Below, piece by piece: positions 29,601 to 35,148 of a stretch of DNA of 64,000 nt. The notes under the pieces are model-generated. The model worked only from the letters and a program-made list of their open reading frames with translations. It was not told the origin of the DNA and ran no database searches. How positions within the stretch are numbered: position 1 is the stretch's first letter; every line of letters starts with the position of its first letter. Made by a program: the position numbers and the translations under genes. This DNA is from the human T2T-CHM13v2.0 reference genome, Homo sapiens. The stretch is taken from the NCBI RefSeq assembly GCF_009914755.1, contig NC_060935.1. One strand, written 5' to 3'.

Positions 29601-32600
29601 TGGATCACTTGAGGTCAAGAGTTTGAGACTAGCCTGGCCAATGTGGCGAAACCCCATCTCTACTAAAAATACAAAATAATTAGCCGGGTGTGATGGCGGG
29701 CACCTGTAGTCCCAGCTACTTGGGACGCTGAGACAGGAGAATCACTTGAACCTGGGAGGCAGAGGTTGCAGCCAGCCGAGATCGTGCTACTGCACTCCAG
29801 CCTGGGCAACAGAGCAAGACTGTCTCAAAAAAAAAAAAGGAATTTTGAGGCTTGTGGTGCTCAGAATAAGCGTACTGGGAGTGGGGTGGCCTGCTGATCA
29901 CAGTGCAGGCTCCCACGTGCCTTCTTAGGATCTACCCTGGTGCTCCCTATGTTGGGCTCGGTGGGTGGCCTACTGGGGCCCAGGTGAGCCTGCCACCTAG
30001 GTTCTCTCTGGAGTAGTTTCACGAGGCCCTGGCTGTCCTTCTCCAAAGGAAATCCTGTCCACACCACATATCAGAGGAGCTGTCATTTGTCATTCCTTCT
30101 GCCCTCCCAGCCACTCCTAGGCAAGGATTTGTGAGACCACCCCCCTTTCATCAAGAAGGAGGCTGTGTCTAGAGAGGGACATTCCCAGTCCCAGGTCACC
30201 GAGAGGTCATGGCCTGGTCCACCTTCCGGTCCCATCTTGAGAGAGGTGCCCTTGCCCAGGTTGCCCTGCTGTGCCTGCTAGGCTAGGGCCAGCAGGTTGA
30301 GATGCACCTGGCCAGGTCTCTTGTCCCATGGGGAAGCTGACTGGCCACATCTAAGGCTGCCTCAAAGGCTGGGCAGAATTTGAGTCTGGAGGAAGTGCTT
30401 GGAGGACCTGGGGTGGCTCCGCTGAGGATGTGGACTGAGGGTGAAGCTTGGAAGGACAAGTCAGGGCTGCCAGGGGTGGGGCGGGGGGAGGCGGGTGTGC
30501 TGGGGAGCCTGGTGCATCTGGGGAAGTGTCCCAGCTGCAGGGATAGGTCCTTTCCAGCCTTCGAGGTTGGCCAGTCGAGGCGGAGCCCCTCCCGTTAGCT
30601 TTGCCCTTCCCGTGGGAGTTACTGGGCTCTCAGACCTGCTTCTGCAGCTGGGAAGGGCTACAAGAGCAGGAAAAGGCACCGTGGCTTGAGGCTGCACGGA
30701 GTCTGGGCAGTGCTTCCCGGGAAGTACCTTGGGCAGAGCCCAGCTCGCAGTGAGCGCTCACAGGCGGAGCGGCTGCTGGTATTGCCCCCCGTCTTCATTT
30801 TCTTCCTAAGATGACCGTGAGTGTTGTGTCAGAGAAAAGGATGGCACTGGTGAAGGTTAACCAAGCACCTGATATGTGCCAGGCCAGCTCCTCTCCCGGT
30901 CCCTGAAGCTTTTCTTTTTTTTATTTTTTTTTGAAACAAGGTCTCATTCTGTCACCCAGGCTGGAGTGCAGTGGTGCCATCTGGGTTCACTGCAGTGTCC
31001 ACCTCCCAGGTTCAAGTAATCCTCCTACCTCAGCCTCCCAGGTAGCTGGGACTACAGGCATGCACCACCATGCCTGGCTAATTTTTGTATTTTTTGTAGA
31101 GATGGGGTTTCGCCATGTTGTCCAGGCTGGTCTTGAACTCCTGGGTTCAAGCGATCCTCCCACCTCCACCTCCCGAAGTTCTGGGATTACAGGTGTGAGC
31201 CACCCTGTCTGGCTGAAGCTTTTCTTTTCTGGGTCTTTTTAGCAGCTCTGGTGGTGCCTGGATTGTAGAGGCGAGCTATGGGCAAGAAAGTCAGTCTGGA
31301 GCGGGTCTGCCCTGGCAAAGGGCCTGCCCCATTAGCTCCATCTTAGGGTGGCACATGGAATCCCCATCACCTCACTGGCTGCCCTGCCGGCCTTAACCCG
31401 CCCGTGCATCCTGGCCATGCCAGCTACCTGTCTTCCAAAGCTCCTGTACTTTTGCCCAACAGGGCCTTTTAACAAGAGGTCCAGGAGCCCCCAGCTTTGG
31501 GTACCACATGTGCCCGTGGCTTTTTTCTGAGGCGAGGCCTGATGGCTGTCATGCTTCAGCTGCCTAAAGGGACCTGTGACCCAGGCACTCTGAGGCAGGC
31601 CCACTACTTCAGCCTGCCCTTCCGGCCCCGAGATCTGGATCCCACAATGTCATGATGGGGAAGGTCCGGGGTTCAGGCGGCAGTTCAGTCTGTTCTGCCC
31701 CACTCGCTCCCCGCCCCCTGCCCATGTGACATCTGGATGCTCCCGCGCTCGGGGTTATGTTTGTGCAGGAACACCAGCTCCTGCTGCTACCTGGCCCACG
31801 TGCTGCACAGGCACTGAAGGTTCACCTGAGGGCCACACCATAGTGTCGGGGCCAGCCAGAGGCGGGTGGGGGACAGGGTTCAGGGCAGGTGGGGCCAGCT
31901 CCACCTTGATGACTTGGAAGCTGAGGTGGTAAATGTTGAGTGTGATGATCTTGTTCTCGTTGGGGGCTGCCATTTGTTTGAGCCTCAATTTCTCATACAA
32001 ACGGGGCATATTCTAGGGCAGAGGCAGGCAGATGCTGCTTGTGAGTGCTAGCCCCAGCACAGGACTTCCTGCTCTGTAAGTGGGTGCTTCCTGGCGGCTT
32101 TGTCACTCCTCCCTGGTCTAGGGGAAGGAGCCAACTTGCTTGGTTGCTCTTGAGAGCTGAGATGGCTCTAGGAGCGGGGCATCCCAGAAAGCGGACTTCA
32201 GCTCAGTCTTGGGGAGGAGCCTCTGAACCTCCATGCTTTCTCCTCCAGTGGCCAGGGCCGGGACCCCGGCCTGACGCCTGCCCCTCCTCTCCCAGAGCAT
32301 CATCTACTACGTGAGCCGCTCACCAAAGCTGGAGGTGTGGCTCAGCCATGAGGGCATCACGGCAGCCCTGAGGCCTGTGCGGGTGCCCGGCTATGCCGAC
32401 TCGGATCCCACCTTCTCGCTGAGTGTGGATGAGGACTATGACCTCCGCCTGTCTGGCCTCTCGCTGCCCTCCTTTTGTGCTGTGCACCTCGAGTGGATCC
32501 AGTACTGCGCCTCCCGGCGCAGCCAGGTCAGGCTCCACTACCTGAGGCTGCCACCTGGGGCTGTGGGACCTGGGCTTCCCTGCTCCCCTTCTCCCCATTT

Positions 32601-35148: not shown

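What the first reader, a model, noticed from the sequence alone, without database searches (positions are those of the whole stretch)
31732..33792. PCNX3 carries an inverted copy of its own exon31/intron31/exon32 junction: candidate fold-back splicing/editing switch
Seen: 31732-31967 in intron 27 is the reverse complement of 33556-33792, with ~83% identity in both exonic parts and a 24-nt perfect stretch. The intron is kept, so this is a DNA-level duplication and not a retrocopy; the copy's frame is broken by CAG>TAG. Several differences are G>A or T>C, which remain G.U pairs in RNA. Inference: the pre-mRNA could form a ~235-bp stem with a ~1.6-kb loop holding exons 28-30. The stem would bury both splice sites of the 80-nt intron 31, whose retention gives an in-frame TGA at 33676-33678 (NMD, or truncation inside the pecanex C-terminal domain). 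It could also act as an editing-complementary sequence for ADAR recoding of exon 31/32 codons, favour multi-exon skipping, or yield endo-siRNAs. This non-Alu self-antisense element is not explained by any annotated feature I know of.
Basis: partly seen in the sequence, partly recalled or inferred. Interest (0 to 1): 0.85.

Follow-up and report, generated by a model that had tools for sequence, protein, structure and literature searches.

The report
Decayed inverted self-copy inside PCNX3
An intron of the human PCNX3 gene holds an old, decayed, back-to-front copy of a later exon-intron-exon junction of the same gene; it could fold the RNA into a long double strand, but its pattern of change looks like neutral decay, not a maintained switch.

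Summary
Window 31732-31967, in intron 27 of PCNX3, is the reverse complement of 33556-33792, which covers the last 63 nt of exon 31, the 80-nt intron 31 and the first 94 nt of exon 32. The two match at 192 of 238 columns (E about 4e-56). They are the only two copies in the T2T genome.

In silico the arms form a 211-bp stem of -420 kcal/mol; controls give about -140 to -190. The stem covers both splice sites of intron 31.

The divergence looks neutral:
- Non-CpG differences are 7.4% at codon positions 1+2 and 17.6% in the intron. That is about twofold, as expected if both intron copies drift.
- 14 of 24 CpG sites at codon positions 1+2 differ.
- 18 of 20 changed codons are non-synonymous.
- 19 of 27 exonic differences are copy-derived.

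The G.U excess (17 of 24 transitions) is weak, and its direction matches a known strand bias in mutation.

No paper found links PCNX3 to editing or intron retention, and the one that also mentions circRNA was not opened. No cross-species DNA or RNA data could be consulted.

Best reading: an inert relic of a small local inverted duplication, very roughly 30-100 Myr old, that may make incidental dsRNA. A regulatory role is unsupported but not excluded.

The parts
31732..31967 (-). Arm 1: decayed inverted copy of the PCNX3 exon 31 / intron 31 / exon 32 junction, lying in intron 27. On the minus strand it reads in the parent's orientation.
   Evidence: 192/238 columns identical to 33556-33792. Not repeat-masked. 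No Rfam match.
31905..31967 (-). Copy of the last 63 nt of exon 31 (codons 1708-1728).
   Evidence: 52/63 identical. One search gives the translation with multiple replacements.
31826..31904 (-). Copy of the 80-nt intron 31. It is 79 nt long, and GT and AG are still present at its ends.
   Evidence: 62/81 columns, two indel events. One search gives the alignment.
31732..31825 (-). Copy of the first 94 nt of exon 32 (codons 1729-1760). It carries TAG at 31787-31789 where the parent has CAG.
   Evidence: the protein search reports 1 TAG inside the match.
33556..33792 (+). Arm 2: the parent segment, made of the exon 31 tail (33556-33618), intron 31 (33619-33698) and the exon 32 head (33699-33792).
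33676..33678 (+). First in-frame stop (TGA) if intron 31 is retained.
31968..33555 (+). The 1588-nt loop of the predicted fold-back. It holds the 3' end of intron 27, exons 28-30 and the first 168 nt of exon 31.

Best explanation
The element is a relic of one small, local, inverted duplication. About 236 bp spanning the exon 31 / intron 31 / exon 32 junction of PCNX3 was copied back-to-front into intron 27, 1.6 kb upstream, some tens of millions of years ago. The most likely route is a template switch during replication or break repair, given the closeness, the inversion, and the lack of a poly(A) tail or target-site duplication; this is an inference.

Since then the copy has decayed as neutral intronic DNA, while the parent exons stayed under coding constraint and the parent intron drifted.

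Because both arms sit in one pre-mRNA, nascent transcripts that still carry intron 27 when exon 32 emerges can in principle fold into a long imperfect duplex. This resembles an inverted Alu pair, except that one arm is coding sequence with two splice sites. Any such pairing, and any ADAR editing or slowed removal of intron 31 that follows, is most likely an incidental, tolerated by-product and not a selected switch.

Shown: the anatomy, uniqueness in the genome, the direction of decay, the neutral-looking divergence ratio and the thermodynamic capacity. Inferred: the mechanism of origin, the age, and whether the duplex forms in cells.
For: Anatomy and uniqueness:
- Two copies only in the genome.
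- It is the only non-masked internal pair in the 64-kb window.
- No other fragment lies nearby.

Source is PCNX3 itself:
- The copy matches PCNX3 at 129/156 exonic sites, against 103 for PCNX1 and 107 for PCNX2.
- It carries a 79-nt intron equivalent. The paralogs have introns of 1174 and 925 nt at this junction.

Decay of the copy:
- 18 of 20 differing codons are non-synonymous, one of them a stop.
- Of 27 exonic differences, 19 are copy-derived, 2 parent-derived and 6 ambiguous when polarised with the paralogs.
- CpG count is 17 in the parent and 7 in the copy. CpG observed/expected is 0.63 against 0.34, and 0.26 in the flanking intron.

Neutral ratio:
- Non-CpG divergence is 6/81 at codon positions 1+2, where only the copy is free.
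- It is 6/44 at position 3 and 12/68 in the intron, where both are free.
- 10.1 intron differences are expected at twice the copy-only rate.

Other points:
- The 24-nt perfect run is not unusual for this identity (P = 0.19).
- There is no target-site duplication: 46% of random sites score as well. No A-run lies at either junction.
- No RefSeq transcript retains intron 31, and no functional element is annotated in either arm.
- Of the searches pairing the gene name with editing, intron retention or circRNA, two gave no paper and one gave a single gout genetics paper, seen as a listing only. Two of the 14 papers pairing PCNXL3 with splicing were read and concern a fusion and a missense mutation.
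Against: - The predicted duplex is very strong. It is -420 kcal/mol, against -139 for the direct orientation, -163 +/- 9 for 100 shuffles and -153 for 23 other intron tiles. It persists in the minimum-energy fold of 2301 nt, with 211 of 236 arm-1 bases paired to arm 2.
- It covers both splice sites of intron 31, in helices 33593-33620 and 33686-33705, so some molecular effect is plausible.
- 17 of 24 transitions preserve pairing as G.U (P = 0.032 against 0.5). Among polarised copy-derived exonic transitions the split is 8:3 (P = 0.11).
- Such elements are not common. 200 kb of neighbouring chr11 held no non-masked inverted pair of 100 nt or more.
- The neutrality test rests on small counts (Fisher P = 0.077 for intron against positions 1+2). 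It cannot detect compensatory double changes directly.
- No orthologous genomes, editing databases, RNA-RNA contact data or paper supplements could be consulted, so absence of evidence here is weak.
Confidence: 0.78

Rival explanations
1. The stem is a selected regulator that hides the splice sites of intron 31, tuning retention and nonsense-mediated decay through the TGA at 33676-33678, and/or guides ADAR recoding of exon 31/32 codons.
For: - Stem of 211 bp at -420 kcal/mol that includes both splice sites.
- In-frame TGA on retention.
- G.U share of 17/24 transitions.
- 32 adenosines lie in the exonic parts of arm 2.
- CCRs (the paired regions of PCCRs) are reported as enriched in editing sites, and a generally obstructive effect of double-stranded structure on splice sites is noted (PMC8052449, passages).
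Against: - The divergence ratio is neutral, and the copy shows heavy CpG decay.
- The wobble excess is not significant once sense-strand mutation bias is allowed for.
- Intron 31 has intrinsic retention-prone features.
- No annotated retained-intron isoform exists.
- No paper links the gene to editing or intron retention.
- Only one A.C mismatch with the A in arm 2 exists, at 33642, and it is intronic.
- From recalled knowledge, a long duplex of this kind would be edited promiscuously, which is hard to reconcile with the highly conserved peptide.
Confidence: 0.08
2. The pairing brings the 3' splice site of exon 28 and the 5' splice site of exon 30 together. This would promote back-splicing into a 483-nt circular RNA of exons 28-30, as flanking inverted Alus do elsewhere.
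For: - Geometry: the base of the stem lies 329 nt upstream of the exon 28 acceptor (32296) and 266 nt downstream of the exon 30 donor (33290). Exons 28-30 sum to 483 nt.
- PCCRs are reported as enriched outside back-spliced introns (PMC8052449, passage).
Against: - The only paper holding both PCNX3 and circRNA is a gout genetics study. I saw it as a listing only and did not open it.
- No circRNA database could be consulted.
- Arm 2 is exonic, so pairing would compete with normal definition of exons 31 and 32.
- The divergence pattern is neutral.
Confidence: 0.05
3. This rival concerns origin only. The copy was made from an unspliced or intron-31-retaining PCNX3 RNA fragment that was reverse-transcribed and captured at a DNA break, and not from a DNA-to-DNA template switch.
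For: The segment is internal to the transcript and includes a short, GC-rich intron with a weak donor site, of a kind I recall is often retained. No microhomology or target-site duplication decides between the mechanisms.
Against: There is no poly(A) tail and no target-site duplication. A donor only 1.6 kb from the insertion site, in inverted orientation, is what local template switching predicts; RNA capture gives no reason for such closeness (inference).
Confidence: 0.15

Closest known systems
Inverted-repeat Alu pairs in pre-mRNA (recalled general knowledge; one such pair lies in the same intron, at 29541-29849 + and 30902-31234 -)
   Same: Two arms of about 240-300 nt and about 80% complementarity, 1-2 kb apart in one transcript. 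They form a long imperfect duplex, the classic substrate for promiscuous ADAR editing and for circRNA-promoting pairing.
   Different: The arms here are not transposon-derived and exist only twice in the genome. One arm is coding sequence plus a whole intron with both of its splice sites.
Editing complementary sequence paired with an exon, as at the GRIA2 Q/R site (recalled)
   Same: An intronic sequence is complementary to exon sequence of the same pre-mRNA.
   Different: As I recall them, known ECS duplexes are short, lie close to the edited exon, are conserved, and direct site-selective editing. Here the duplex is 211 bp, lies 1.6 kb upstream, decays neutrally, and no editing is documented.
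Catalogued long-range pre-mRNA structures: PrePH conserved complementary regions (PMC8052449) and RIC-seq-supported PHRIC structures (PMC10691357); passages read
   Same: Intramolecular pairing over kilobases. It falls in the 'mixed' class, in which one side overlaps a splice site. Such structures are reported to go with splice-site obstruction, looped-out exons, circRNAs and editing.
   Different: Those structures have a median of about -23 kcal/mol, and only 106 of 1,190 mixed ones exceed 30 kcal/mol. This one is -420. Neither main text names PCNX. Their full lists are in supplements and track hubs that I could not see.
Hairpin-RNA loci and the inverted-duplication origin of plant microRNA genes (recalled)
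   Same: An inverted duplicate of a gene fragment creates a self-complementary RNA aimed at the parent gene.
   Different: Here the copy sits inside the parent gene's own intron. No small RNAs are known from it, and no Rfam family matches.
Small templated or inverted insertions from template switching or break repair (recalled)
   Same: A short non-repeat segment copied from nearby in inverted orientation, with no poly(A) tail and no target-site duplication.
   Different: As I recall, template-switch events described in primate genomes are mostly tens of bases. This one is 236 nt and old enough that junction microhomology can no longer be judged.

Membership tests
Processed retrocopy / processed pseudogene | Introns of the parent are absent | tested here: not met
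   A 79-nt equivalent of intron 31 is present and aligns at 62/81 columns.
Processed retrocopy / processed pseudogene | Poly(A) tail and target-site duplication | tested here: not met
   No A-run lies at either junction. The flank similarity is no better than at 46% of random intron sites.
Small intragenic inverted duplication, non-functional relic | Homology runs across exon-intron boundaries, the source is the same gene, and only two copies exist | tested here: met
   (129/156 identity to PCNX3, against 103 and 107 for the paralogs). The paralog introns are 1174 and 925 nt.
Small intragenic inverted duplication, non-functional relic | The copy decays without coding constraint and at a neutral rate | tested here: met
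   18/20 changed codons are non-synonymous, with a stop. 19/27 differences are copy-derived. CpG falls from 17 to 7, and non-CpG divergence is 7.4% against 17.6%, about 1:2. Counts are small.
Inverted-repeat transposon (Alu-type) dsRNA | Arms derive from a repeat family | tested here: not met
   The arms are not masked, only two copies exist in the genome, and the arms give no SRP/Alu Rfam hit.
Inverted-repeat transposon (Alu-type) dsRNA | A long imperfect intramolecular duplex is thermodynamically favoured | tested here: met
   -420 kcal/mol with 211 bp, retained in the 2301-nt fold, against controls of -139 to -191.
ECS-exon editing duplex | Intronic sequence complementary to an exon of the same pre-mRNA | tested here: met
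ECS-exon editing duplex | Documented A-to-I editing of the exon | not testable with these tools
   No editing database or reads were available. The search for PCNX3 with 'RNA editing' returned 0 papers. Supplements are closed.
Conserved long-range RNA structure regulating splicing | Conservation with compensatory substitutions across species | not testable with these tools
   No other vertebrate genome could be reached. The internal divergence ratio shows no deficit of change in the intron part, which argues against maintenance but is indirect.
Conserved long-range RNA structure regulating splicing | Experimental RNA-RNA contact between the arms, or an effect on splicing | not testable with these tools
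   PCNX is not named in the main texts of PMC8052449 or PMC10691357.

The most novel reading that the evidence does not exclude
A self-antisense element that is not a transposon, born by inverted duplication of an exon-intron-exon junction, acts in primates as an autoregulatory fold-back. When removal of intron 27 is slow, a stem of about 211 bp hides both splice sites of intron 31 and recruits ADAR. That shunts PCNX3 transcripts into retention of intron 31 and decay, or into hyper-edited coding sequence. It would be a case of a gene evolving its own long ECS-like regulator from its own exons.
Probability: 0.07. Interest if true: 0.7.

Novelty: new member of a known kind. Interest (0 to 1): 0.3.

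Why it matters
If the duplex forms in cells, PCNX3 would be a natural test case. A long dsRNA that is not a repeat and has a coding arm would show how ADAR, the spliceosome and the order of intron removal deal with exonic dsRNA. Editing there would recode a pecanex C-terminal segment that is well conserved between human PCNX3, PCNX1 and PCNX2.

If it is inert, as the evidence suggests, it is a clean and datable example of a small inverted templated duplication inside a gene. It also warns that strong predicted complementarity is not evidence of function.

In either case the element is unique and short, which makes the decisive deletion experiment simple.

Tried and rejected
- Chance match: rejected (E = 4e-56; a unique pair in the genome).
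- Transposon or known RNA family: rejected (not masked; Rfam gives only Alu-derived hits elsewhere in intron 27 and nothing in the arms).
- Copy of a paralog: rejected.
- Processed retrocopy: rejected (intron kept; no poly(A) tail or target-site duplication).
- Larger or compound rearrangement: none found.
- Recent gene conversion between the arms: no sign, since the longest perfect run of 24 nt has P = 0.19.
- Exon skipping by looping: removing exons 28-32 takes out 989 nt, which is not a multiple of three, so no productive isoform would result.

Baseline rate of such elements: only 200 kb of neighbouring chr11 could be scanned. It held 0 inverted and 3 direct non-masked pairs of 100 nt or more, out of 1554 pairs. 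This is too small for a genome-wide rate.

Literature:
- PCNX3 + 'RNA editing': 0 papers.
- PCNX3 + 'intron retention': 0 papers.
- PCNX3 or PCNXL3: 96 papers, of which 40 were listed. By title and abstract start, none concerns splicing, editing or RNA structure of this gene.
- PCNX3 + circRNA: 1 paper, seen as a listing only and not opened.
- PCNXL3 + splicing: 14 papers. The two I read concern a PCNXL3-RELA fusion and a missense mutation.
- 'editing complementary sequence' + 'inverted duplication': 0 papers.
- One search was badly designed, because its terms matched each other, and gave nothing usable.

Dating against other species, constraint scores, editing databases, RNA contact maps and paper supplements were all out of reach.
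Full report
**1. The observation**

The repeat finder reports two abutting inverted arms that together span 31732-31967 and 33556-33792. A local alignment of the reverse complement of the first against the second gives 192 identical columns of 238:
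- 52/63 in the exon 31 tail
- 62/81 in intron 31, with one 1-nt and one 2-nt indel
- 78/94 in the exon 32 head
- 24 transitions and 19 transversions in all

Homology ends abruptly on both sides. In a self-BLAST of the 64-kb window this pair (80.7% over 238 nt, E = 4.2e-56) is the only one of 440 HSP rows in which either member is less than half repeat-masked. A search of the whole T2T-CHM13 assembly with 31650-32050 finds only the query itself and the parent.

The numbering is that of NM_032223.4. Intron 27 is 3521 nt, the longest in the gene, and intron 31 is 80 nt.
- The 24-nt perfect run is 33736-33759 = 31765-31788.
- CAG>TAG is at codon 1741.
- The in-frame TGA on retention of intron 31 is at 33676-33678.

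**2. What it is**

The copy comes from PCNX3 itself. It matches PCNX3 at 129 of 156 exonic sites, against 103 for PCNX1 and 107 for PCNX2. It carries a 79-nt equivalent of PCNX3's 80-nt intron. The paralogs have introns of 1174 and 925 nt at the same junction.

It is not a processed retrocopy. The intron is kept, no A-run is present, and the similarity between the flanks is no better than at 46% of random intron positions. No further fragment of this or any other part of the window lies beside it.

A donor only 1.6 kb away in inverted orientation points to a local template switch in replication or break repair. That is an inference. Capture of an unspliced RNA fragment cannot be excluded.

**3. 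Is it maintained?**

The copy does not code. Of 20 codons that differ, 18 are non-synonymous and one of those is a stop. With PCNX1 and PCNX2 as outgroups, 19 of the 27 exonic differences arose in the copy, 2 in the parent, and 6 are ambiguous.

CpG dinucleotides fall from 17 in the parent to 7 in the copy. CpG observed/expected is 0.63 in the parent, 0.34 in the copy and 0.26 in the flanking intron. 14 of 24 CpG sites at codon positions 1+2 differ.

The most informative comparison uses non-CpG sites:
- 6/81 (7.4%) at codon positions 1+2, where only the copy is free to change
- 6/44 (13.6%) at position 3
- 12/68 (17.6%) in the intron, where both copies are free

Twice the copy-only rate predicts 10.1 intron differences, and 12 are seen. 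This is what neutral drift of the copy and of the parent intron gives. Selection to keep the arms paired should instead lower the intron figure. The counts are small (Fisher P = 0.077 for intron against positions 1+2), so this is an indication and not proof.

The 24-nt perfect run is unremarkable at this identity (simulated P = 0.19).

**4. The G.U argument**

17 of the 24 transitions leave a G.U pair in the RNA. That gives P = 0.032 against an even split. But a transition keeps a wobble pair exactly when it is A>G or C>T on the sense strand, in either arm.
- A>G is the direction favoured on the non-transcribed strand by transcription-coupled repair (passage read in 10.1101/117325, which cites Green et al. 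2003).
- PCNX3 introns show sense-strand skews: G over C +0.057 and T over A +0.119.
- Against a null of 0.55-0.6, P is 0.09-0.19.
- For the 11 polarised copy-derived exonic transitions the split is 8:3 (counted by hand from the table), P = 0.11.

**5. Capacity to fold**

With ViennaRNA the two arms form a duplex of -420 kcal/mol, with 211 of 236 arm-1 bases paired. The arms folded alone give -89.7 and -97.7. Controls are far weaker:
- -139 for the direct orientation
- -163 +/- 9 for 100 shuffles, minimum -191.5
- -153 on average for 23 other tiles of intron 27

The stem survives in the minimum-energy fold of the 2301-nt stretch 31600-33900. The longest helices are 28, 28, 20 and 20 bp. The 5' splice site of intron 31 lies in helix 33593-33620 and the 3' splice site in helix 33686-33705.

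Whether the duplex forms depends on intron 27 still being present when exon 32 is made, 1588 nt later. This cannot be tested here. By analogy with inverted Alus at similar spacing (recalled knowledge), I think some pairing and some promiscuous editing in nascent RNA is quite possible.

**6. Alternative causes and missing evidence**

Intron 31 has features that I recall as typical of retained introns, whether or not a stem forms: 80 nt, GC 0.74 (the highest of the 34 introns) and a 6/9 match to the donor consensus. None of the 8 RefSeq PCNX3 mRNAs retains it. No functional element is annotated in either arm.

Only one A.C mismatch has its A in arm 2, at 33642, and it is intronic.

The geometry would also suit a back-splice of exons 28-30 (483 nt). 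Loop-mediated skipping of exons 28-32 would remove 989 nt and break the frame.

The literature searches found nothing on this element. PCNX is not named in the main texts of the two long-range structure catalogues. Their lists are in supplements or track hubs that I could not see, and these may bear on the claim.

**7. Age (inference)**

The copy-only non-CpG divergence is 7.4% (95% CI 2.8-15.4%; Jukes-Cantor 0.078). With recalled primate and mammalian neutral rates of about 1-2.2e-9 per site per year, this gives roughly 35-80 Myr with wide error. I state 30-100 Myr and predict that the element is shared at least by anthropoid primates.

**8. Comparison with what is known**

The element works like an inverted Alu pair or a very long ECS, and it falls in the 'mixed' class of long-range pre-mRNA structures. 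Its predicted energy is far beyond the reported median of about -23 kcal/mol (PMC10691357). It fails membership of the transposon-derived class. It cannot be tested for the defining features of ECS elements or of conserved regulatory structures, namely editing, conservation and RNA contacts.

It is best filed as a small intragenic inverted duplication with dsRNA potential: a new member of a known kind.

**9. How common**

In 200 kb of neighbouring gene-dense chr11 (20 pieces of 10 kb) I found no non-masked inverted pair of 100 nt or more. Three direct pairs turned up, two of them in an EHBP1L1 exon. The element is therefore not commonplace, but the sample is small.

**10. Verdict**

The best explanation is a neutral relic that may cause incidental dsRNA (confidence 0.78). 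The regulatory fold-back reading keeps a probability of about 0.07-0.08.

Interest is 0.3. This is a real, unusual and easily testable curiosity. What evidence can be had points to inertness.

Noticed in passing
window 29541-29849 (+) and 30902-31234 (-): Two masked repeats in intron 27 give Alu-type matches to the SRP RNA model on opposite strands. They form an inverted Alu pair about 1050 nt apart in the same intron as arm 1, which is itself a standard dsRNA and ADAR substrate.
   Followed up: partly
window 34480-34539 (MIR4690), within intron 33 (34478-34560): The annotated 60-nt MIR4690 precursor starts 2 nt after the donor site of the 83-nt intron 33 and fills most of it, a mirtron-like layout (given annotation). 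Rfam gave no match there at E <= 1.
   Followed up: no
window 32249 / 32296 (exon 28 acceptor sites): RefSeq models use two acceptor sites 47 nt apart for exon 28. 47 is not a multiple of three. The upstream site is used only by XM_054368760.1, which ends inside exon 28 at 32416.
   Followed up: no
window 34121-34201: An extra exon in intron 32 is used only by XM_054368759.1. Its coding part ends at 34157 in the given annotation, so it looks like a stop-carrying alternative exon.
   Followed up: no
L022 (chr11:65,576,657-65,577,453): Direct, non-masked repeats of 70-72% identity lie inside an EHBP1L1 exon, suggesting a tandemly repeated coding segment. A separate 101-nt direct pair of 94% identity lies at chr11:65,263,008-65,263,558 in L006.
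   Followed up: no
window, introns of the four genes: Sense-strand skews differ between neighbouring genes. PCNX3 has G>C +0.057 and T>A +0.119. RELA has G>C +0.125 and T>A about 0. MAP3K11 has both near 0.
   Followed up: no
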